From assembly GCF_003334315.1 (NCBI RefSeq), contig NZ_QOWR01000075.1: DNA of 15,366 bases, one strand, 5' to 3'. The DNA comes from Escherichia coli (GTDB taxonomy: Bacteria > Pseudomonadota > Gammaproteobacteria > Enterobacterales > Enterobacteriaceae). The notes under the pieces are model-generated. The model was given only the letters and a program-made list of their open reading frames with translations. It made no database searches and was not told the DNA's origin. Position numbers and translations under genes: made by a program. Below, one piece after another: positions 1-15,366 of the stretch. Position 1 is the stretch's first letter, and each line of letters starts with the position of its first letter.

Positions 1-105
1 ATTATATCGAATGTGATTACAATCGGTGGCGGCGGCACAGTTGGTGTGGCGGCCTCAGTCCGGAACAATTTGAAAACAAGAACCTCGCTTAGGCCTGTGT
101 CCATA

Positions 106-459
106 TTACGTGGGTAGGATCAGATCAGGAACAGCTTTAACAGTAGCTTCTTGTTGTGTCTTGGCTTCTTGTCTAGCTTCTTCTTGTGGAATATCTACCA
201 CTTGATAGACATTAGAACTTCCTGGTCGTGCATCTTTTATAATTAACCCCATTTCGAGCAATTTCTTAACCCTTTCCTCTGCTGCTCTTGGTGTTATGCC
301 AAAAACATCGCCTATCTTAGCGTAAGAGGGAAATGCACGATCAAACCCTTTCAGATAGCAGTAAAGATTTTTAGCACTATCTGTAAATTTATGCCCGTTT
401 ACTTGGCTTATTTTTAGAATCCACATAGGAACTTTTACAAATTGTTCTTCATTAATCAT
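106..459 (-). CDS. small winged-helix/HTH DNA-binding protein, 117 aa from ATG 459 (the ORF track shows a GTG-extended 125 aa form reaching 483)
   Basis: Open frame 106..483. The ATG at 457-459 is preceded by AAGGAG (467-472) 7 nt upstream, while the GTG at 483 has no SD. The pattern VPMWILK..AKNLYCYLKGF..FPSYAKIGDVFGITPRAAEERVKKLLEMGLI resembles the HTH_36 / initiator-type winged helix of phage and plasmid proteins (from memory, not searched). The tail is acidic and Q-rich. Confidence 0.6.
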   Translation of the reverse strand: MINEEQFVKVPMWILKISQVNGHKFTDSAKNLYCYLKGFDRAFPSYAKIGDVFGITPRAAEERVKKLLEMGLIIKDARPGSSNVYQVVDIPQEEARQEAKTQQEATVKAVPDLILPT

Positions 460-512
460 TAAAAATCTCCTTGATGTAATCACGCTCTATGGCGCTACTA
501 TGGTGATAAAAA

Positions 513-683
513 TCACTTGCTTTTATTTGAGAGTGTTTCAGCCTCTCTTTTCAACATATCAAGAATGTAATCTGTGACAGTGATACGTCTACTTCTGGCT
601 TCTTTAAATAACACCTGAAATACTTCATCAGGAATATGAAAGCAAGTGCGTGGTTGTCTTTTCTTTTCTGTAGTTTCGCTCAT
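513..683 (-). CDS. 56 aa ribbon-helix-helix-like (Arc/CopG/MetJ style) protein, MSETTEKKRQPRTCFHIPDEVFQVLFKEARSRRITVTDYILDMLKREAETLSNKSK
   Basis: Not in the ORF track because it is under 60 aa; I translated it by hand. ATG at 681-683, TGA at 513-515, AAGGAG at 690-695 (6 nt spacer). The basic N-terminus followed by beta-strand-like FHIPDEVF and then two helices is the RHH layout. It lies between two other same-strand genes with short gaps (19 nt to the upstream gene, 53 nt to the downstream one). Confidence 0.55.
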   Translation of the reverse strand: MSETTEKKRQPRTCFHIPDEVFQVLFKEARSRRITVTDYILDMLKREAETLSNKSK

Positions 684-702
684 AGTTTTCTCCTTCTATT
701 CT

Positions 703-891
703 TTACTCTGTTTCAGATTCTTTTTCATTTTTTCTTAATTCATCAATAATCTTGAGTGCTTCATTGAAGCAAGCTGCTCGCTCTGGATAACCTCGACTCC
801 TTGCCATATTACGATTCATTACTATTTGGTGGCGTGTAAGCTCACCTTTTTTAAATGCCGCGACAACGTGTTCCGATGTGAACCATTTCAT
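703..891 (-). CDS. 62 aa hypothetical protein, first gene of the three-gene operon
   Basis: ATG at 889-891 with AAGGAG at 898-903 (6 nt spacer); TAA at 703-705. I recognise no family. The C-terminus is helical and charged. Confidence 0.55.
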   Translation of the reverse strand: MKWFTSEHVVAAFKKGELTRHQIVMNRNMARSRGYPERAACFNEALKIIDELRKNEKESETE

Positions 892-1001
892 AAAAAACTC
901 CTTATTCAGTTAAAAGAAAAACACCTTGCAAGCCTGACGGCTTCAAAGTGCATTGATTTTGATTATTTAGAGAAGAATGTTTTTCTGTCCCTCTAATACC
1001 T

Positions 1002-1030
1002 ATTATTACATATAAAGAAACATTTGTCAA
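1002..1030 (-). promoter_or_regulatory. sigma70-like promoter for the 891->106 operon
   Basis: On the minus strand: TTGACA (1030..1025), 17 nt spacer, AATAAT (1007..1002). This predicts a leader of about 100 nt before the ATG at 891. Confidence 0.45.
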
Positions 1031-1122
1031 TACCTTTTCACAAAAAATCTGATCTTTTTCATGTACTTACATTTTTTCTTAGCAATTCGTGCTCTTCTGT
1101 GTAGTGCTATTCTTCCTTATTG

Positions 1123-1151
1123 TCTAAAACGCTCTAAAACGCGTTCTAACG
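1123..1151 (+). repeat. tandem 10-mer TCTAAAACGC x2 plus a degenerate third copy
   Basis: Perfect copies at 1123-1132 and 1133-1142, with a partial copy TCTAACG at 1145-1151. The related AAAACGCTCT recurs at 1287-1296. Confidence 0.6.
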
Positions 1152-1567
1152 AGGTTTTGATAAAAGCAATACATTCCCTTATGTAATGGCTGTTTAGCTC
1201 GCCAGAGGCTTATTTAAGGGGCTTATTTTGTATTTGTTAGGTATATGAAAAGGTGATGGTAGATATAAGATAGAGAGTCACTTTATAAAACGCTCTGTAA
1301 AGCCCTGTAGTGAGTTTATATATGTAGGCAATGCGTTTCCATTCCCTACCCTGCTTAATGCTGTTAGAGAAGCATTTAGACCCCTTATTTTTAATTACCT
1401 AAAGTATCCTCTATACATTCCTGTTATGAAACACCTCTGAATCCTTCATAAAACACATTATGACGCAAAGAACACTTTTCTAAGGTGATTCCCTTCCTGA
1501 ATGCTGTTTCTTGCGTCAAAGAGCTACACAGAGCTTATAAAGCTATTATTAATAATAAAGTAGACAA

Positions 1568-1620
1568 AGTAAGTAAGATAAGTAAGTAAGATAACTAAGA
1601 TAGATAAGATTAATAAGATC
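1568..1620 (+). repeat. TAAG/TAAGAT microsatellite-like tract
   Basis: Perfect 13 bp tandem AGTAAGTAAGATA at 1568-1580 and 1581-1593. TAAGAT hexamers start at 1574, 1587, 1596, 1605 and 1614 (spacing 13, 9, 9, 9 bp). Confidence 0.75.
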
Positions 1621-1629
1621 AGAATTCTC

Positions 1630-1661
1630 TTTCGGTGTCGCCTCTGGCTTTTCCACCGAAA
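1630..1661. other. 8 bp stem hairpin / dyad (TTTCGGTG ... CACCGAAA, 16 nt loop)
   Basis: Arms at 1630-1637 and 1654-1661 are perfectly complementary. There is no U-tract on either strand, so it is not called a terminator. Confidence 0.4.
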
Positions 1662-1663
1662 AC

Positions 1664-1828
1664 AATTACACAACTACAGAGAATAACGAGAGTTATTAAA
1701 TGTAGAAAGTGGAATTGTATTGAGGCTTAGTGAAATTACACGAGGAAAGCAGAGTGTAATTGAGCTTTAGCCGCTCTCTCTTCGAGTAATTACACAACTA
1801 CAGAGAATAACAGAGTTATTAAATGTAG
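1664..1828 (+). repeat. pair of 42/41 bp direct repeats (1664-1705 and 1788-1828) bracketing an AATTACAC/GTGTAATT inverted pair
   Basis: Both copies read AATTACACAACTACAGAGAATAAC(G)AGAGTTATTAAATGTAG and are identical except for a 1 nt indel. Each contains the dyad AATAAC-N3/4-GTTATT. Between them, AATTACAC (1734-1741) and GTGTAATT (1754-1761) form a perfect 8 bp inverted repeat. Confidence 0.9.
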
Positions 1829-1889
1829 GAGGGTAATTAAGAGTTAGAGAGAGTTAACACATAAGCAATCAGTATGATTGGTTAGGTGA

Positions 1890-2070
1890 TTACTCTTCTG
1901 CGCACAGCGCAATAGTATTTCTTCGTGGGCGTTACCGCCAACGATAGTTACACGAAGAAAGTAACGCTTTGCTTTCGGTGTGAGCGGAACGGGCCAGCCA
2001 CGAAGCCCAAAGGTAGCGGAGTAAGGCTGCTTGCCAGAGAGTGAAGCTAACGCCGGAAGGCAAAAGATCA
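1890..2070. ncRNA. candidate structured RNA (or gene relic): a GC-richer, hairpin-dense patch inside very AT-rich DNA
   Basis: Perfect 10 bp helix TTTCTTCGTG (1918-1927) / CACGAAGAAA (1951-1960), enclosing GGCG-TTAC-CGCC (1928-1939). An alternative pairing is GCGTTAC (1929-1935) with GTAACGC (1961-1967). Other hairpins: TGCGC-ACA-GCGCA (1899-1911), GGGC/GCCC (1991-1994/2005-2008) and TTGCC/GGCAA (2031-2035/2059-2063). The overlapping 75 aa minus-strand ORF has no SD. Strand is undetermined. Confidence 0.3.
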
Positions 2071-2128
2071 TATAAATAAATATATAATATTATAATTTAA
2101 TAAGTAATTTAATAAATGATCTAATAGG

Positions 2129-2262
2129 TAACAGAATTCTGTGGGGGTGTCTAACAGTTTTCTGTGGGGGTGTCTAACAGAATTCTGTTAGGGTGGGGTA
2201 ACAGAATTTTGTTAGGGTAAAAATCTCTTTAAAAGTTAAGATTAACAGAATTCTGTGGGGGG
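2129..2262 (+). repeat. array of 5 dyad sites TAACAG-N4-CTGT(TA), each followed by a G-run
   Basis: Copies at 2129-2147, 2152-2170, 2175-2198, 2199-2218 and 2243-2262 (start spacing 23, 23, 24, 44 bp). The core ACAGAATTCTGT is a perfect 12 bp palindrome, and the copy at 2175 is a perfect 16 bp palindrome, TAACAGAATTCTGTTA. Confidence 0.9.
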
Positions 2263-2325
2263 TAGCTCACAGTGACCTACCCCCTAGTTCACTATGACCT
2301 ACCCCCCTAGGTCACAGTGACCTAT
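2263..2325 (+). repeat. iteron triplet A (22, 23, 18 bp units: TAGCTCACAGTGACCTACCCCC / TAGTTCACTATGACCTACCCCCC / TAGGTCACAGTGACCTAT)
   Basis: Head-to-tail direct repeats at 2263-2284, 2285-2307 and 2308-2325. The preceding G-run and the first unit form the inverted repeat GGGGGTAG ... CTACCCCC. Confidence 0.9.
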
Positions 2326-2383
2326 ATAGTATAAAGAATATTATTTATATTATTTAATTATAGTATTTAATTATAGTATTGGT
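2326..2383. repeat. extremely AT-rich spacer with a perfect 13 bp tandem TATTTAATTATAG x2 (2351-2363, 2364-2376); DUE-like
   Basis: Read directly from the sequence. It is flanked by the iteron and dyad arrays. A second AT-rich tract (2072-2128) carries the 11-mer TAATTTAATAA twice (2093-2103, 2105-2115). Confidence 0.7.
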
Positions 2384-2483
2384 GGAACTCATTTCCTAGG
2401 TAGGTAGGAACTAATTTCCTAAGTAGGTAGGAAACCACTTCCTAGGTTACTTCCTAAATAGATCGGAAATCATTTCCTAGGTG
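2384..2483 (+). repeat. array of 4 dyad sites GGAA-N5-TTCC followed by TAGGT/TAAGT
   Basis: Sites at 2384-2396, 2407-2419, 2430-2442 and 2465-2477 (start spacing 23, 23, 35 bp). There is a lone TTCCTA half-site at 2451-2456. Confidence 0.9.
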
Positions 2484-2501
2484 TTATTTATACTTATCGG
2501 G

Positions 2502-2556
2502 TATCAGTTTTGATAGGGGTATCAGACTTGATAGGGGTAACAGAATTCTGTGGGGG
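2502..2556 (+). repeat. array of 3 dyad-plus-GGGG units (TATCAGTTTTGATAGGGG, TATCAGACTTGATAGGGG, TAACAGAATTCTGTGGGGG)
   Basis: Units at 2502-2519, 2520-2537 and 2538-2556, with an 18 bp period. The TATCA..TGATA arms differ from the TAACAG..CTGTTA arms by symmetric (compensatory) changes in both half-sites. Confidence 0.9.
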
Positions 2557-2619
2557 TAGTTCACTATGACCTACCCCTAGTTCACTGTGAGCTACCCCTA
2601 GTTCACTGTGAGCTACCGT
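2557..2619 (+). repeat. iteron triplet B (3 x 21 bp TAGTTCAC(T/A)(G/A)TGA(G/C)CTACCCC)
   Basis: Units at 2557-2577, 2578-2598 and 2599-2619. They have the same orientation and family as 2263-2325. The module [TAACAGAATTCTGT + G-run + 3 iterons] is therefore duplicated (2243-2325 and 2538-2619). Confidence 0.9.
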
Positions 2620-2711
2620 TACATCCAATCATCTGTCGATGTAACATATCGTTACTACCAACTTTCTTACAAAGAGCATTTCAGATAGCTGAATGTAACC
2701 TCTCGTTACAT
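2618..2711. repeat. four GTTACAT heptamers arranged as two dyads
   Basis: GTTACATC (2618-2625) / GATGTAAC (2638-2645) with a 12 bp spacer. ATGTAAC (2693-2699) / GTTACAT (2705-2711) with a 5 bp spacer. There is an extra CGTTAC at 2650-2655. Confidence 0.8.
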
Positions 2712-2732
2712 CCATTTGTCACATAGCACTCT

Positions 2733-3208
2733 GTGTAATGCCTTTCTATGTGTGTGCCATAATCCCCCTATATTCCCTGTGTAAATCATAGAATAATGCT
2801 CTCTATTCCCTGTGTAATTCCCTACTAAAAATCAATGAAAAAGTAGCTTAAAGTTGCAATTCTTACTTTCTTCACTTTTACATCACTTTCGCAAAGCCTT
2901 GTGTAATGCGGCTTACAGAGCACCATCAGAAATTGTTGGCTAAAAATTATTCTGCTTGTTTCTGAACGAGTTTTCTCGTTTGTGCAAATTTTAAAATTTA
3001 TTTTGTTTTTACAGCCTTATTTCGTGTAATGCGTGGCATAGCAAGCCCTTTTCTTGTGTTGTCAAGACATTTGGCAACGTTCAAACATCTGTTTAGAAAT
3101 GCCAAATTGTTGATCTAACAAATAAACCTGTATAAACAGAACACCATTTAATCTATTCCCCTGTGTATCCATTAGGCATACCAAATGAATACAGCTAAAT
3201 CGTGTAAT
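2733..3208 (+). repeat. field of GTGTAAT-containing motifs, including the perfect 14-mer TATTCCCTGTGTAA x2
   Basis: GTGTAATGC at 2733, 2901 and 3024; GTGTAAT at 3202. TATTCCCTGTGTAA at 2771-2784 and 2804-2817 (33 bp apart). Variant TATTCCCCTGTGTA at 3154-3167. Related ATTCCCTTATGTAAT near 1173-1187. CCCTGTGTA on the minus strand at 4604-4612. Confidence 0.8.
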
Positions 3209-3281
3209 ATTCCGTACCCATAAGGCTTGAAACAGACCAAATGAATACGGTATACTCATTTGCATTTAAGTAGTGCCAAAT
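3069..3281. promoter_or_regulatory. res-like recombinase-binding region (CCAAAT-containing half-sites) upstream of the serine recombinase gene
   Basis: CCAAATGAATAC at 3181-3192 and 3237-3248. An imperfect inverted partner GTATACTCATTTG lies at 3250-3262. TGCCAAAT is at 3100-3107 and 3274-3281, with its complement ATTTGGCA at 3069-3076. The arrangement resembles the multi-subsite res regions next to tnpR-type genes (established layout; the assignment here is inference). Confidence 0.4.
3227..3256 (+). promoter_or_regulatory. sigma70-like promoter of the recombinase gene, overlapped by the repeated half-sites
   Basis: TTGAAA (3227-3232), 18 nt spacer, TATACT (3251-3256). The CCAAATGAATAC repeat lies within the spacer, which suggests autoregulation. 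Confidence 0.45.
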
Positions 3282-3301
3282 CGACACATTAAGAGGATTT
3301 T

Positions 3302-3841
3302 ATGAGCAATATCGGTTATAAGCGTGTGAGCACTGTAGATCAGAACACTGATCGCCAGCTTGCAGGAGTAACTCTCGATAAAGTCTTTGAAGATAAGCTG
3401 TCTGGTAAAGACACTAACCGCCCAGGCTTACAAGCGTGTTTAGCCTATCTGAGAGAAGGCGACACCTTACACGTGCACTCTCTCGACCGTTTAGGACGTA
3501 ACACCTTAGACATCCTTGCTTTAGTTGAACAACTTAATAATCGAGGTGTAATTGTTCGATTTCACAAAGAAGGAATCATTGCAGACATTACAAGCGCGAT
3601 GGGAAAGATGATGCTTACGATGTTGTCGGCAGTTGCAACGTGTGAACGTGAACTGATGTTAGAACGTAAACGAGAAGCGCAAGCCGTCAATCCTACAAAA
3701 CGTGGTAATGGAAAAGCAGTGGATCGAGAAGGTATAAAGAAAGCCCTTTCTGATGGCCTGTCAGTGCGTAAAACCGCCGAGAGCTTTAATGTTGCTCCTT
3801 CAACGGTGCAACGTATCAAGAAGGAAGAAGAGGAGGCGTAA
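3302..3841 (+). CDS. small serine recombinase (resolvase/invertase family), 179 aa
   Basis: N-terminal GYKRVSTVDQNTDRQ carries the catalytic-serine motif (YxRVSTxxQ). DRLGRN and the SAVATCERE helix are present. C-terminal HTH: GLSVRKTAESFNVAPSTVQRIKK. RBS AAGAGGA at 3291-3297. Confidence 0.9.
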   Translation: MSNIGYKRVSTVDQNTDRQLAGVTLDKVFEDKLSGKDTNRPGLQACLAYLREGDTLHVHSLDRLGRNTLDILALVEQLNNRGVIVRFHKEGIIADITSAMGKMMLTMLSAVATCERELMLERKREAQAVNPTKRGNGKAVDREGIKKALSDGLSVRKTAESFNVAPSTVQRIKKEEEEA

Positions 3842-3849
3842 TGCCTCCT
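3831..3849 (+). terminator. hairpin at the recombinase stop codon (AGGAGGC-GTAAT-GCCTCCT)
   Basis: Perfect 7 bp stem overlapping the TAA, followed by TTGATATTTG, which is only a weak U-tract. Confidence 0.4.
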
Positions 3850-4058
3850 TGATATTTGAGAATTGTCGCTGCGTGGACCTGACGGCGCTGATCTTCTCGT
3901 TAAGCGATGATCACGTATGCGCCGATTTCAGAGAAAAAGACAGTAACTGAACTCACTATGAAGGCTAAACGTATCTTTACACTTGATGAAAACGTTCAAA
4001 AAACAACCTAACCCCAAAATTCAACAAATTGCAACACATTGTTTTTAAAAGAAAATTA

Positions 4059-4106
4059 AATCTACATCAAATATTGGTTGACGTAGATTGAGGTGAATAG
4101 TAGACT
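4059..4106 (+). promoter_or_regulatory. sigma70-like promoter with a flanking 7 bp inverted repeat, upstream of the 52 aa ORF
   Basis: TTGACG (4078-4083), 17 nt spacer, TAGACT (4101-4106). AATCTAC (4059-4065) / GTAGATT (4083-4089) brackets the -35. Confidence 0.4.
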
Positions 4107-4182
4107 ATTAGGGTAAATTACCACCCTTGTAACATCATTTAATGCATGTTCTAATCTTCCTATCGTAAAACCGGAGGAAGTT

Positions 4183-4341
4183 ATGCATTTACTTTCAAAA
4201 CATCTTCACACTATTCACTTTCTCGTTATTGATGTATTCGTTGTGGCTATTAGTTACCGCATTTGCATCGCTTCCAGTGAAGAGATGGACGCTGTTGCAA
4301 TTATTGCTCAAGCAATGGCGATATTAACTAAACGACTTTAA
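4183..4341 (+). CDS. 52 aa hydrophobic mini-protein, MHLLSKHLHTIHFLVIDVFVVAISYRICIASSEEMDAVAIIAQAMAILTKRL
   Basis: Translated by hand (below the track cut-off). GGAGG at 4173-4177, 5 nt before the ATG at 4183; TAA at 4339-4341. It has a promoter upstream and a hairpin downstream. The hydrophobic core suggests a membrane peptide. Confidence 0.4.
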   Translation: MHLLSKHLHTIHFLVIDVFVVAISYRICIASSEEMDAVAIIAQAMAILTKRL

Positions 4342-4354
4342 TAATTTCACTATC

Positions 4355-4398
4355 AGGCGCATAAACACATCTTTGATCGCTGGATGTGTTATGCGCCT
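4355..4398. terminator. long hairpin between the convergent mini-ORFs (16 bp stem with one bulge, 11 nt loop)
   Basis: AGGCGCATAAACACATC (4355-4371) pairs with GATGTGTTATGCGCCT (4383-4398). There is no clear U-tract on either strand, so the terminator role is inferred only from its position between the two stop codons (4341 and 4408). Confidence 0.45.
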
Positions 4399-4407
4399 AC
4401 TGGTGAT

Positions 4408-4560
4408 TCAATCCTTAAGCCATTTCAACTCACTAAGGAGTTTTCTTTCTTCGTTCTCTCGTTGCTTTCGCTCTAGCCAGGCTTTTCCCTCTGGCGTAGA
4501 CAGGAACTTACGAGCGTGAATCTTGCGGTTATTACGTTTTATAGCTGCAATGTTTTTCAT
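4408..4560 (-). CDS. 50 aa basic, coiled-coil-like mini-protein, MKNIAAIKRNNRKIHARKFLSTPEGKAWLERKQRENEERKLLSELKWLKD
   Basis: Translated by hand. ATG at 4558-4560, AGAGG at 4568-4572 (7 nt spacer), TGA at 4408-4410. A CCCTGTGTA motif lies about 45 nt upstream, on the same strand. Confidence 0.4.
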   Translation of the reverse strand: MKNIAAIKRNNRKIHARKFLSTPEGKAWLERKQRENEERKLLSELKWLKD

Positions 4561-4744
4561 CGTGTTGCCTCTGTATTCATATGAAAATTAACAAGTTACA
4601 TACTACACAGGGAGACTACGCATAAAACACAATACAAGTAAAGATACATTTTCAAGACAATAGGAGCCATAAAGCGCCTTTGATGGTTATACCAAAAAAT
4701 AAGCGCCGTAGGCGTATCCACTAAAAAGGGCTTTTTCACAAAAG

Positions 4745-5110
4745 CTATGAAGTCTTAGCAGTTCTTCTCTTATCAGGCACCCGTTGTACTCCGGTGGACG
4801 AAACCGTGCTAGAGCTTGATTCTTTCCCGATCAAGTTAGGTTTTGAAGAGGTGGGCTTTAATCCACTATTGCACTTAAAACTCTTCCCATCATTTAGCCT
4901 GTTTATCCTCTGCAACGTCTCACGACGTGTAGCATCATTGGACACCGCGCCAGGTGTGGAACATCTTGCTAAGAGTTTTGGTAGAAGGTTTAGAGACGGT
5001 GGCACGTCTTCCAGCTTCAAAGGAACTTGTTACGAGGTTGAGCCTGGGAACTACTCGCCCATACGTGTTACACTACCAAAGCCCATAACAACGTATAGGC
5101 GTTTGTAAGT
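4745..5110. ncRNA. candidate structured RNA or decayed gene adjacent to the thrW 3' end
   Basis: GC is close to the core genome, unlike its neighbours. Both strands carry long overlapping open frames (4745..5020 minus, 4794..5108 plus) with non-ATG starts and no SD. Many local hairpins: 4813-4837, GAAGAG/CTCTTC 4845-4886 enclosing GTGG/CCAC, ACGTC-TCAC-GACGT 4915-4928, ACACC/GGTGT 4942-4957, AGACG/CGTCT 4994-5009. On the minus strand, a short GC stem plus T6 at about 4695-4725 could terminate a leftward transcript. Confidence 0.3.
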
Positions 5111-5166
5111 GATAACAGAAGATACAATTTCTTAGAGAAGTTAAGCTAAGTTATTGATTTTCTTGA

Positions 5167-5242
5167 TGGTGCCGATAATAGGAGTCGAACCTACGACCTT
5201 CGCATTACGAATGCGCTGCTCTACCAACTGAGCTATATCGGC
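5167..5242 (-). tRNA. thrW: tRNA-Thr (anticodon CGU)
   Basis: The reverse complement reads GCCGATATAGCTCAGTTGGTAGAGCAGCGCATTCGTAATGCGAAGGTCGTAGGTTCGACTCCTATTATCGGCACCA. It is 76 nt with an encoded CCA, a CGT anticodon in the loop and a GGTTCGA T-arm. Confidence 0.97.
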
Positions 5243-14565: not shown

Positions 14566-14913
14566 TCAAAAACGCATGCGAAACGCTTCTGCCATTTTCC
14601 CAATTTTATGCATTTGGTTGTTATCTCGAGCCTGTTTATGAGGTTCAGGTTTCAGAATGGCAATGAGCAACCATGCTTGCTCATCAAACGCACCCTGACA
14701 ATATACCAAATGCGCTTCGTCATTCGTTCTGCTGAATTGGCGCAACTGTGGCGGAAATGGATTATTCACATTTGCCAGATGAATATGAGCAACTCGCTCA
14801 AATTTGATTAATGGCCAGGTAAACGAGTCGTCGTAGAGTGCATCGCGACCAAATATATCTGGCAAAACACCGTCACGCTTATAGGAAATAAAATCCGCCG
14901 TTAACGCATCAAG
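14566..14913 (-). pseudogene. yafO: yafO (ribosome-dependent mRNA interferase toxin of the YafN-YafO pair) lacking its 5' end because of IS1
   Basis: The frame stays open upstream of the track ORF and reads LDALTADFISYKRDGVLPDIFGRDALYDD...RMRF*. This matches YafO from about residue 18 onward. The reading frame is cut exactly at the IS1 inverted repeat (14913/14914). Confidence 0.85.
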
Positions 14914-15366
14914 GGTAATGACTCCAACTTATTGATAGTGTTTTATGTTCAGATAATGCCCGATGACTTTGTCATGCAGCTCCACCGATTTTGAGAACGA
15001 CAGCGACTTCCGTCCCAGCCGTGCCAGGTGCTGCCTCAGATTCAGGTTATGCCGCTCAATTCGCTGCGTATATCGCTTGCTGATTACGTGCAGCTTTCCC
15101 TTCAGGCGGGATTCATACAGCGGCCAGCCATCCGTCATCCATATCACCACGTCAAAGGGTGACAGCAGGCTCATAAGACGCCCCAGCGTCGCCATAGTGC
15201 GTTCACCGAATACGTGCGCAACAACCGTCTTCCGGAGACTGTCATACGCGTAAAACAGCCAGCGCTGGCGCGATTTAGCCCCGACATAGCCCCACTGTTC
15301 GTCCATTTCCGCGCAGACGATGACGTCACTGCCCGGCTGTATGCGCGAGGTTACCGACTGCGGCCT
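14914..15366 (-). mobile_element. IS1 (right-end portion; the element continues beyond the window)
   Basis: It starts with the IS1 terminal inverted repeat GGTAATGACTCCAACTTATTGAT (14914-14936). The following sequence and the encoded InsB match IS1 from memory. Confidence 0.95.
14929..15366 (-). CDS. insB: IS1 transposase InsB reading frame (5' partial at the window edge)
   Basis: ..[41 protein letters not shown]...LNIKHYQ*. The frame is open up to position 15366, and the track lists only the part from the internal Met (15306). Confidence 0.93.

What the first reader, a model, noticed from the sequence alone, without database searches (positions are those of the whole stretch)
1890..2070. 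GC-richer hairpin cluster embedded in AT-rich DNA: candidate regulatory/structural RNA with mutually exclusive helices
A stretch of about 180 nt with visibly higher GC sits between two nearly pure A/T tracts. It folds locally into several helices, including a perfect 10 bp stem (1918-1927/1951-1960).

The segment GCGTTAC (1929-1935) can pair either inside that stem-loop (GGCG/CGCC) or with GTAACGC (1961-1967) just outside it. This is the kind of alternative pairing used by copy-control or attenuator RNAs. Its position directly next to an origin-like region is where plasmids place antisense or primer RNAs.
Basis: partly seen in the sequence, partly recalled or inferred. Interest (0 to 1): 0.6.

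Follow-up and report, generated by a model that had tools for sequence, protein, structure and literature searches.

The report
Conserved folded element beside replication origin
The GC-rich hairpin cluster is real: it is the last third of a conserved, highly folded non-coding stretch of at least 430 bases, probably an RNA, at the edge of the replication origin of a small phage-like element found in about a tenth of complete E. coli genomes, including BL21, and it matches no catalogued RNA family.

Summary
Window 1890-2070 is 52.5% GC, between a 33% GC flank and an 8.6% GC flank, and it contains a perfect 10-bp stem. It is not a stand-alone hairpin cluster. It is the 3' domain of a conserved structured region, window about 1641-2069, in the roughly 2.4-kb gene-free part of a ~12-kb element integrated at tRNA-Thr (thrW). 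About 70 distinct relatives from Enterobacterales genomes and gut metagenomes keep the same helices through compensatory changes. This was shown separately for three segments, each exceeding all 500 shuffles and the slid-partner controls. G-U pairs and folding energies favour the + strand. The region always ends at a GATC-containing AT-rich stretch followed by iterons. Many relatives, BL21(DE3) among them, have an extended -10 promoter upstream that points into it. There is no Rfam match, no conserved ORF, and no match in the phage-genome or plasmid collections. My best reading, at moderate confidence, is an origin-associated structured RNA that acts in cis as a pre-primer or origin activator. 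A folded single-stranded DNA priming signal is the main rival.

The parts
1002..1030 (-). Strong leftward promoter (TTGACA-17-AATAAT with TG) of the replication operon. That operon encodes a 62-aa protein (703-891), an RHH protein (513-683), and an O-like Rep truncated by IS3 (106-483).
   Evidence: Promoter scan. ORFs and translations. PHROG matches to replication initiator O-like families for the intact Rep in L003.
1260..1361 (+). Possible 5' end of the transcript. It holds a weak promoter-like site, TAGATA-18-TATAAA (1260-1289), and two motifs shared with relatives: AAAACGCTCTGTAAAGC (1287) and TTCCCTACCCTGCTTAATGC (1342). In the window type, about 270 nt of AT-rich insertion (about 1375-1640) separates this from the main structured region.
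   Evidence: Direct comparison of upstream sequences; coordinates. Relatives have better promoters at the homologous place. This is weak evidence for the window itself.
1641..1772 (+). 5' structured domain. It comprises conserved CCTCTGGC (1641), a long hairpin at 1662-1718 with apical AATAAC-GAGA-GTTATT (1682-1697), a hairpin AATTACAC/GTGTAATT (1734-1741 with 1754-1761), and an enclosing helix GGCT/AGCC (1724-1727 with 1769-1772).
   Evidence: RNAalifold on 17 relatives gives 31 pairs, 8 of them with compensatory changes. Pair counts: 97% of cells paired, covariation 0.127 against 0.045 in shuffles (0/500), slid controls at most 0.031. The same helices appear in the single-sequence fold.
1773..1887 (+). 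Middle structured domain. A long hairpin is closed by GCTCTCTCT/AGAGAGAGT (1773-1781 with 1846-1854) and contains a second copy of the CACAACTAC...GTAG hairpin (repeat of 1664-1705 at 1788-1828). A further hairpin lies around CAATCA-GTA-TGATTG (1866-1880).
   Evidence: RNAalifold on 8 relatives gives 41 pairs, 11 compensatory. Pair counts: 94.7% paired, covariation 0.186 against 0.088 (0/500), with conserved G-U pairs at 6 positions and no A-C. Repeats.
1899..1911 (+). Small invariant hairpin TGCGC-ACA-GCGCA, present in all relatives, including the divergent E. coli subtype L026-L031.
   Evidence: The stem never varies, so there is no covariation evidence either way.
1918..1960 (+).
   Evidence: In the related type, the stem core TTCGTG/CACGA and the loop AACGAAGTT are kept, while the inner hairpin is replaced by CTGAC-NNTC-GTCAG. 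Other relatives carry a three-helix module here, with compensatory changes in all three helices. An alternative proximal pairing is possible.
1961..1987 (+). Linker GTAACGCTTTGC, the 5' strand of a probable closing helix (1967-1978), and the near-invariant motif TGAGCGG (1981-1987).
   Evidence: TGAGCGG is kept in nearly all of the 51 distinct core sequences. The closing helix forms in every relative, but its own partner is clearly preferred only in some classes.
1992..2035 (+). Core hairpin. S1 is GGC/GCC (1992-1994 with 2033-2035). S2 is CAGCC/GGCTG (1995-1999 with 2025-2029). The inner stem is GCC-CAAA-GGT (2005-2014). A conserved 3-nt bulge CTT lies at 2030-2032.
   Evidence: Covariance model R1 finds one hit per locus, on the expected strand, in 77 loci, including window 1979-2047 (27.4 bits). 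Pair counts: 96.3% paired, 7 of 12 pairs changed on both sides, covariation 0.332 against 0.118 (0/500), slid controls at most 0.045. S2 is CAGCC/GGCTG, TGTCC/GGACA, TGACC/GGTCA or TCGAACC/GGTGAGA in different classes.
2036..2069 (+). 3' tail: conserved GAGTGA(A/C), the 3' strand of the closing helix (2053-2066), and the end ...GGCAAAAGATC.
   Evidence: The conserved block ends here in all relatives, and the sequence to the right differs between them.
2070..2128 (.). AT-rich stretch (8.6% GC) with GATC at 2066 and 2118; the probable DNA unwinding element of the origin.
   Evidence: Relatives have GATC-started 13-mer-like repeats at the same place. The function is inferred.
2129..2619 (.). Iteron arrays of four families: TAACAGAATTCTGTGGGGGTGTC x6, CCCCTAGTTCAC..GACCTACCCC x6, TTCCTA.GTAGGTAGGAA x3, and GGGTATCAG..TTGATAG x2.
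   Evidence: Each family is the only iteron type in some relative.

Best explanation
Window 1890-2070 is the 3' domain of a conserved, multi-helix, non-coding element of at least 430 nt (window about 1641-2069, possibly starting near 1290). The element folds as a single strand in the + sense. It forms the left boundary of the iteron-type replication origin of a ~12-kb integrative phage-like element at thrW.

Most likely it is an RNA. [quoted passage not shown] The transcript folds into the conserved helices. Its 3' end, ...GCAAAAGATC, runs without a terminator into the AT-rich, GATC-containing unwinding element beside the iterons. There it acts in cis on initiation, either by helping to open the origin or by serving as a pre-primer. 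This resembles ColE1 RNA II, or transcriptional activation of the lambda origin, but here it is combined with a Rep protein and iterons.

Shown: the structure, its conservation and covariation, the folding strand, the fixed position next to the AT-rich stretch and iterons, the absence of a coding frame, and promoter-like sites in relatives.

Inferred: that it is transcribed, where the transcript ends, and what it does.
For: Conservation:
- Between divergent elements, almost the only blastn-detectable similarity in the gene-free region is inside 1641-2069.

Covariation:
- It was shown separately for three segments, each exceeding all 500 shuffles and the slid-partner controls.
- The variable hairpin modules show further compensatory swaps.

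Strand:
- The + strand has the lower folding energy in 60 of 60 relatives.
- The + strand has the more negative z-score in 9 of 9.
- The middle domain has 27 G-U cells at six conserved pairs and no A-C.
- In many relatives, a hairpin followed by a T-run directly after the 3' end reads as a terminator only on the - strand. That leaves no room for a - strand transcript.

Promoter:
- Many relatives have TTCAAA-16-TATAAT or a similar site with an extended TG, 170-205 nt upstream of the first conserved block.
- BL21(DE3) has the homologous TGATATGAT.
- No ORF follows on that strand for more than 1 kb.

Position and generality:
- The conserved block always stops at the AT-rich/GATC stretch before the iterons.
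- The core class is shuffled relative to iteron type, and the Rep family differs between relatives (O-like in the window type, DUF6945 in L004). This argues for a function that does not depend on the particular Rep.

Precedent:
- RNA-based origins exist in prophages (PMC7157519).
Against: - No transcript evidence was available.
- In the window itself only a weak promoter candidate exists, and a 270-nt AT-rich insertion separates it from the structured block.
- There is no terminator or other defined 3' end.
- Outside the middle domain, G-U does not clearly outnumber A-C. The energy asymmetry partly reflects the G+T-rich composition of the + strand.
- A folded DNA strand would give the same covariation.
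- The relatives are mosaics of a few module classes, so the number of independent compensatory events is far smaller than the cell counts.
- The alignment used for the core hairpin was fitted to the model.
- The resemblance of the 3' end to the ColE1 RNA-to-DNA switch point rests on my memory of that sequence.
Confidence: 0.4

Rival explanations
1. It is a single-stranded DNA priming signal (an ssi or primosome assembly site). When Rep opens the AT-rich stretch, the displaced + strand folds into the conserved hairpins. Host PriA or DnaG then recognises these hairpins to load DnaB or to prime. This would follow the phiX174-type sites of ColE1 and F, or the layout of IncQ origins (iterons, AT-rich stretch, ssi hairpins).
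For: - The structure abuts the AT-rich stretch and iterons, with no terminator and, in the window, no good promoter.
- The element encodes only a small O-like or HTH Rep, and no helicase, loader or primase was recognised. A host-dependent loading site would therefore be useful.
- The near-invariant TGAGCGG (TAAGCGG in one relative) sits at the 5' base of a hairpin. It loosely recalls GAAGCGG at the base of the hairpin in the phiX174 F-G intergenic region. That AAGCGG is a hallmark of such sites is from memory.
- Covariation is equally expected for a DNA hairpin.
Against: - Known ssi sites are about 40-150 nt, whereas here at least 430 nt are conserved and folded.
- Several helices carry conserved G-T pairs, up to three in one 15-pair hairpin. 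These would be weak in DNA.
- Promoter-like sites pointing into the region are conserved in relatives.
- The 6-nt resemblance to phiX174 could be chance.
Confidence: 0.25
2. It is a structured RNA, but its job is not initiation in cis. It could be a trans-acting or regulatory RNA of the element. Examples would be RNA-based immunity as in P4, a protein sponge, a packaging or helper-exploitation RNA, or a large structured RNA of the GOLLD/ROOL/OLE kind. On this reading its place next to the origin is incidental.
For: - It is large, multi-domain, and has conserved junction and loop nucleotides.
- No repressor gene is evident opposite the leftward operon, so an RNA regulator is conceivable.
- The core class is independent of Rep and iteron type.
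Against: - The 3' boundary coincides with the AT-rich stretch in every relative.
- There is no terminator.
- There is no complementarity test or target.
- GGA motifs are not enriched, so it is not a CsrA-type sponge.
- No Rfam large-RNA family matches.
Confidence: 0.2
3. It is a double-stranded DNA feature of the origin. It could be a GC-rich block that limits unwinding, as seen next to the AT-rich region of RK2, pPS10 or lambda origins (from memory). Alternatively it could be a set of binding sites for host or element proteins.
For: - A GC-rich block (52.5%, and 58.9% for 1980-2069) lies directly beside an 8.6% GC stretch.
- Several invariant sequence motifs are present: TGAGCGG, GCGCACAGCGC and CACAACTAC.
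Against: - Compensatory changes that keep intrastrand pairing are not expected for duplex binding sites.
- Strand-asymmetric G-U pairs are present.
- The conserved length greatly exceeds that of known GC-rich origin blocks.
Confidence: 0.07
4. One reading: a copy-control or attenuator RNA that switches between the inner hairpin (GGCG/CGCC) and the pairing GCGTTAC (1929-1935) with GTAACGC (1961-1967).
For: - Both sequences exist and are complementary.
- The location is next to an origin.
Against: - A 7-mer complement is expected by chance about once in 180 nt.
- Other structural types lack GCGTTAC while keeping the GTAACGC-like linker, which instead belongs to the closing-helix region.
- No terminator follows.
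- No antisense promoter and terminator pair was found.
- No Rfam antisense family matches.
Confidence: 0.04
5. It is a protein-coding gene, or a fragment of one: the 75-aa ORF at 1844-2071 on the - strand.
For: An ATG-started ORF spans the region.
Against: - No Pfam match.
- It is never annotated in hundreds of RefSeq genomes.
- Open frames differ in strand, frame and length between relatives, and some have none above 45-53 codons.
- Close variants differ by 1-3-nt indels inside it.
Confidence: 0.01

Closest known systems
ColE1/pMB1 pre-primer RNA II (with antisense RNA I)
   Same: Both are long, multi-hairpin, non-coding regions of several hundred nt read toward the origin. Neither has a terminator before the origin. 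Both end in an A-run followed by GATC at the point where DNA synthesis would start (the ColE1 sequence is from memory).
   Different: ColE1 has no Rep protein and no iterons, and its control is by antisense RNA I. Here there are iterons, a Rep and an RHH protein, and no antisense RNA I-like unit was found. There is no sequence or Rfam similarity.
Single-strand initiation signals and primosome assembly sites (phiX174 F-G intergenic site; ColE1, F and R6K ssi; IncQ ssiA/ssiB next to iterons and an AT-rich stretch)
   Same: Both are strand-specific hairpin structures placed beside an origin. The layout of iterons, AT-rich stretch and hairpins is shared. A (G/A)AGCGG motif sits at the base of a hairpin.
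   Different: The element here is three to ten times longer and has G-U-rich helices, and relatives have promoter-like sites upstream. No element-encoded primase like IncQ RepB' was found.
Lambda-type origin (O protein, iterons, AT-rich region, GC-rich palindrome, transcriptional activation)
   Same: Both have an O-like initiator, iterons, an AT-rich stretch and then a GC-richer folded block. Both have nearby transcription directed at the origin. The lambda details are from memory.
   Different: The lambda origin lies inside the O gene, and its palindrome is about 28 bp. Here the origin is intergenic and the folded block is at least 430 nt with covariation.
RNA-based replication origins of extrachromosomal mycobacteriophage prophages (Wetzel et al. 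2020, PMC7157519)
   Same: Both are in a phage-derived element and involve a non-coding region near the replication functions that is proposed to act through RNA.
   Different: Those phages lack a Rep protein, belong to Actinobacteria, and show no sequence relation. Here Rep and iterons are present.
Large structured non-coding RNAs of phages and prophages (GOLLD, ROOL, OLE)
   Same: They are similar in size class (hundreds of nt), have many covarying helices, and are carried on mobile elements.
   Different: No Rfam match was found. Those RNAs are not tied to a replication origin. Transcription of the present element is unproven.

Membership tests
Any Rfam 15 family | Score at or above the family's gathering threshold | tested here: not met
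   In the window, only tRNA-Thr reaches threshold. At E <= 10 over 900-3300 there are only chance-level hits. In ten relatives, no hit lies over the region.
ColE1-type RNA II / RNA I replication control | Antisense RNA I unit (own promoter and terminator) overlapping the 5' part of the pre-primer | tested here: not met
   No - strand promoter and terminator pair lies inside the region. No match to an RNAI family.
ColE1-type RNA II / RNA I replication control | Origin works without an initiator protein or iterons | tested here: not met
   Four iteron families and an O-like Rep gene are present.
ColE1-type RNA II / RNA I replication control | Promoter-driven structured transcript of several hundred nt ending at the origin, processed by RNase H | tested here: inconclusive
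   The structure and its position fit. The promoter is good in relatives but weak in the window. The transcript and RNase H cleavage are not testable here.
phiX174-type primosome assembly site / ssi | Strand-specific hairpin structure in single-stranded DNA near an origin | tested here: met
   Conserved + strand hairpins abut the AT-rich stretch. The test cannot tell DNA from RNA.
phiX174-type primosome assembly site / ssi | AAGCGG hexamer (from memory; present in phiX174) | tested here: inconclusive
   The near-invariant motif is GAGCGG. AAGCGG occurs in one relative only, L064.
phiX174-type primosome assembly site / ssi | PriA-dependent (or DnaG-dependent) priming on SSB-coated single-stranded DNA | not testable with these tools
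   This needs an M13 ssi assay or in vitro priming.
IncQ-type oriV | Iterons, an AT-rich stretch, and ssi hairpins recognised by an element-encoded primase | tested here: not met
   The layout is similar, but no primase or helicase was recognised among the element's proteins.
Transcription attenuator / riboswitch-like switch | Conserved mutually exclusive helices, one of them an intrinsic terminator, upstream of a regulated gene | tested here: not met
   The proposed alternative pairing is not conserved. No terminator lies at the 3' end on the + strand. No gene follows for more than 1.2 kb.
Protein-coding gene | Reading frame conserved among relatives | tested here: not met
CsrB/RsmZ-type protein sponge | Many GGA motifs in loops, above the level expected from composition | tested here: not met
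   GGA counts are within -1.4 to +1.0 sd of dinucleotide shuffles in nine relatives.

The most novel reading that the evidence does not exclude
This is a new class of large structured RNA, about 430-700 nt with at least eight covarying helices and invariant junction motifs such as UGAGCGG. It would be the RNA component of an iteron-type replication origin in a previously undescribed family of ~12-kb capsid-gene-carrying integrative elements, likely phage satellites, of Enterobacterales. The family is present in about 10% of complete E. coli genomes, including BL21(DE3).
Probability: 0.35. Interest if true: 0.8.

Novelty: new variant of a known kind. Interest (0 to 1): 0.6.

Why it matters
If the element is an RNA that works at an iteron origin, it would join two initiation strategies usually treated as separate: Rep protein plus iterons, and a structured pre-primer RNA. 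It would also add an uncatalogued large structured RNA to E. coli. Its carrier is a compact element that encodes a capsid protein but no terminase or portal. That element is common in E. coli and its relatives yet absent from the phage-genome and plasmid collections, so it may be an unrecognised satellite family. Because BL21(DE3) and other B strains carry a copy, the question can be tested directly with existing strains and probably with existing RNA-seq data. If it turns out to be a DNA priming signal, it would be an unusually large and elaborate one.

Tried and rejected
- **Rfam.** Gathering thresholds and the permissive E-value mode gave nothing relevant in the window or in ten relatives.
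- **A cos or pac site shared with a helper phage, or a plasmid origin.** Sensitive blastn of window 900-3300 against the phage collection found only an unrelated 46-nt match. A 680-nt relative found nothing in the phage or plasmid collections.
- **Identity with the known thrW prophages of O157 Sakai (Sp1, Sp2).** Those are different elements.
- **Protein-coding reading.** Rejected.
- **CsrA-sponge idea.** Rejected.
- **Long-range pairing of CCTCTGGC (1641) with GCCAGAG (2034).** The single-sequence fold suggests it, but classes lacking GCCAG do not keep it.
- **A helix CGTCG/TGACG flanking the core.** Variation in the 5' strand is not compensated.
- **Closing helix 1967-1978 with 2053-2066.** It forms everywhere, but the own-partner versus foreign-partner duplex test was only weakly positive overall (-15.3 against -14.2 kcal/mol). 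I therefore report it as probable only.
- **MAFFT alignments of the core.** These were structurally inconsistent, so a covariance model built from a gapless 5-sequence seed was used instead.
- **G-U versus A-C counts in the core and 5' domain.** These did not separate the strands on their own. The middle domain did.
- **Literature searches.** Searches for a description of the element or for transcript data found nothing usable.

Full report
**Where the window lies.** The window is E. coli chromosome. The genes proA, proB, phoE, crl, frsA and others lie to the right of tRNA-Thr(CGU), thrW, at 5167-5242 on the - strand. To the left of the tRNA, at 1-5166, is one end of a ~12-kb integrative element. 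In this genome an IS3 end cuts the element at about position 125. Intact copies, for example L003 at 10628-22745, encode:
- a tyrosine integrase;
- a Dit-like protein;
- a 609-aa tape-measure-like protein;
- a lambda-E-like major capsid protein;
- several small proteins;
- an HTH protein matching phage O-like replication initiators;
- an RHH protein and a 62-aa protein.

These are followed by 2.4-2.9 kb without any annotated gene, and then in some copies by a small serine recombinase. The finding lies in this gene-free stretch.

**Checking the observation.**
- GC content is 52.5% for 1890-2070, 33% to the left, and 8.6% for 2071-2128.
- The 10-bp stem 1918-1927/1951-1960 is perfect. Such a stem is not expected by chance (about 0.005 per 180 nt by my arithmetic).
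- The 7-nt complement 1929-1935/1961-1967 exists, but it is at chance level (about 0.9 expected).
- The 196-nt stretch folds better than shuffles on the + strand (z = -2.89), less so on the - strand (z = -1.18).
- To the right, the AT-rich stretch with GATC sites is followed by four families of iterons at 2129-2619. The 'origin-like region' is therefore real.

**The feature is conserved and larger than described.**
- The 241 nt around the finding occur in 438 of 5426 complete E. coli genomes and are never annotated.
- A query from a more distant relative finds the family in 520 genomes, always on chromosomes, including BL21(DE3) and other B strains.
- Divergent sister elements sit at other sites: L004 at tRNA-Gly, and L005, L018 and BL21 next to the thiM TPP riboswitch.
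- Within the gene-free region these sisters share little with the window beyond blocks inside 1641-2069, most strongly 1980-2069.
- Pattern scans of viral, genome and metagenome collections gave about 70 distinct relatives.
- In all of them the conserved region ends just before a GATC-containing AT-rich stretch and iterons. The iteron type differs from element to element.

**Structure and covariation.** The relatives are mosaics of a few alternative modules that keep the same helices with different sequences.
- *Core hairpin (window 1992-2035).* The second stem is CAGCC/GGCTG, TGTCC/GGACA, TGACC/GGTCA or TCGAACC/GGTGAGA. The outer stem is GGC/GCC, GGGG/CCCC or GGGC/GCCC. The inner stem is GCC/GGT, GCC/GGC, GCCC/GGGT or CCCC/GGGG. 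A conserved 3-nt YTT bulge is kept, with the near-invariant TGAGCGG on the 5' side; in most classes GAGTGAC or GAGTAC follows on the 3' side.
- *Covariance model.* A model built from a gapless five-sequence seed finds exactly one hit per locus, on the expected strand, in 77 loci, including window 1979-2047.
- *Pair counts on the core.* 96.3% of cells are paired and 7 of 12 pairs changed on both sides. The covariation score is 0.332 against 0.118 in shuffles (0/500), and at most 0.045 when partners are slid.
- *5' segment (window 1641-1772).* On MAFFT alignments not fitted to any structure, there are 31 pairs, 8 of them compensatory, 97% paired, with a score of 0.127 against 0.045 (0/500).
- *Middle segment (window about 1766-1912).* On the same kind of alignment, there are 41 pairs, 11 compensatory, 94.7% paired, with a score of 0.186 against 0.088 (0/500).
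That type keeps the stem core and the internal loop AACGAAGTT, and replaces the inner hairpin GGCG-TTAC-CGCC by CTGAC-NNTC-GTCAG. A third type carries a three-helix module with compensatory changes in each helix.
- *Whole-region fold.* Window 1641-2069 gives z = -7.39.

Caveats: the core alignment was fitted to the model, and the modules recombine, so independent events are few.

**Strand.**
- The + strand is more stable in 60 of 60 relatives, by 18.7 kcal/mol on average. Part of this is composition, because the + strand is G+T-rich.
- Z-scores against dinucleotide shuffles are also more negative for the + strand in 9 of 9.
- In the core and the 5' domain, G-U does not clearly outnumber A-C.
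- In the middle domain, six conserved pairs are G-U or U-G (27 cells) and none is A-C. This is hard to reconcile with folding of the - strand or with a symmetric cruciform.
- In many relatives, a hairpin right after the 3' end is followed by a T-run only on the - strand.

**Coding and known families.**
- The 75-aa ORF on the - strand has no Pfam match.
- Open frames change strand, frame and length between relatives, and close variants differ by 1-3-nt indels.
- Rfam gives nothing.
- No sequenced phage or plasmid in the collections carries the region.

**Transcription signals.**
- A strong leftward promoter serves the replication operon.
- Back to back with it, many relatives have a good rightward promoter with an extended -10: TTCAAA-16-TATAAT in one type, TTGATG-18-GATAAT in L004, and TGATATGAT in BL21 and L020-like elements. 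These sit 170-205 nt before the first conserved block.
- No ORF follows on that strand.
- In the window itself only a weak candidate exists (TAGATA-18-TATAAA at 1260-1289), and an AT-rich insertion follows it.
- No intrinsic terminator closes the region on the + strand.

**Interpretation.** What is shown is a conserved, strand-specific, multi-helix single-strand structure that forms one border of an iteron origin. Its class is independent of iteron type and of Rep family.
- The reading I favour is a rightward transcript that folds and runs into the unwinding element, acting in cis as an origin activator or pre-primer. It would work like ColE1 RNA II or lambda transcriptional activation, but in a Rep-plus-iteron origin. 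RNA-based prophage origins are a precedent.
- The main rival is a folded DNA strand used as a priming or helicase-loading signal. The layout resembles IncQ origins, and TGAGCGG loosely recalls GAAGCGG in the phiX174 site. Against this, the size, the G-U-rich helices and the promoters fit RNA better.
- A trans-acting RNA with another role cannot be excluded. A CsrA-type sponge is rejected.
A different pair of competing helices (UUCGU with the proximal ACGAA or with the distal CACGAA) is conserved in sequence but untested.

**Verdict.** The finding is real, conserved and uncatalogued. Its nature as a structured single strand is well supported. That it is an RNA is probable, and its function is inferred. 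It is directly testable in BL21(DE3).

Noticed in passing
window 1-5166; complete copy in L003 10628-22745: The carrier is a compact ~12-kb integrative element. It encodes a tyrosine integrase, a Dit-like protein, a tape-measure-like protein, a lambda-E-like capsid protein, an O-like Rep and an RHH protein. No terminase or portal was recognised. It is common in E. coli but absent from the phage-genome and plasmid collections. It may be an undescribed phage-satellite family.
   Followed up: partly
L005 5106-5203 and 15997-16066; L018 4393-4489; L138 8551-8647: Some relatives, BL21(DE3) among them, sit directly next to the thiM TPP riboswitch. In L005 a riboswitch copy lies at each end, which suggests integration into the thiM leader.
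   Followed up: no
window 2129-2619: The window carries four different iteron families side by side. Each of them is the only iteron type in some relative. This suggests recombination between origins or the collection of decoy sites.
   Followed up: partly
window 2732-3230 and 3302-3841: Repeated TGTGTAA(T)-type motifs (2732, 2778, 2811, 2900, and degenerate copies further on) lie upstream of a 179-aa serine recombinase of the resolvase family. They are possibly a res-like site. Relatives carry a small tyrosine recombinase at the same place (L004 9105-9665).
   Followed up: no
window 2964-2980 and 3073-3087: Two short blocks are conserved with the distant relative L004: the palindrome GAACGAGTTTTCTCGTT and GGCAACGTTCAAACA. 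Both lie upstream of the recombinase gene. Their function is unknown.
   Followed up: no
relatives L053 and L114 versus L048 and L004 (module homologous to window 1918-1960): A small hairpin has its loop flipped between relatives (CCG-TTTCA-CGG versus CCG-TGAAA-CGG, and CTCG-TTTCA-CGAG versus CTCG-TGAAA-CGAG). This is the signature of a hairpin-mediated micro-inversion at the DNA level.
   Followed up: no
window 1617-1639: A degenerate copy of the main iteron (GATCAGAATTCTCTTTCGGTGTC, 74% identical to the reference copy) lies just 5' of the first conserved block. It is 490 nt away from the iteron array.
   Followed up: no
window 922-950: There is a conserved hairpin in the 5' leader of the leftward replication operon (CACCTTGCAAGCC-TGAC-GGCTTCAAAGTG on the + strand). 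Relatives keep it with sequence changes.
   Followed up: no
L026-L031 (E. coli thrW elements), e.g. L026 2650-3450: A second E. coli thrW subtype keeps the GCGCACAGCGC hairpins and TGAGCGG, but replaces the GC-rich core with a longer AT-rich sequence that ends in a different long hairpin before the AT-rich stretch.
   Followed up: partly
window 1-125 and 14913-15366: An IS3-family end truncates the element's Rep gene, so this copy is probably replication-defective. An IS1 copy lies at the right end of the window.
   Followed up: partly
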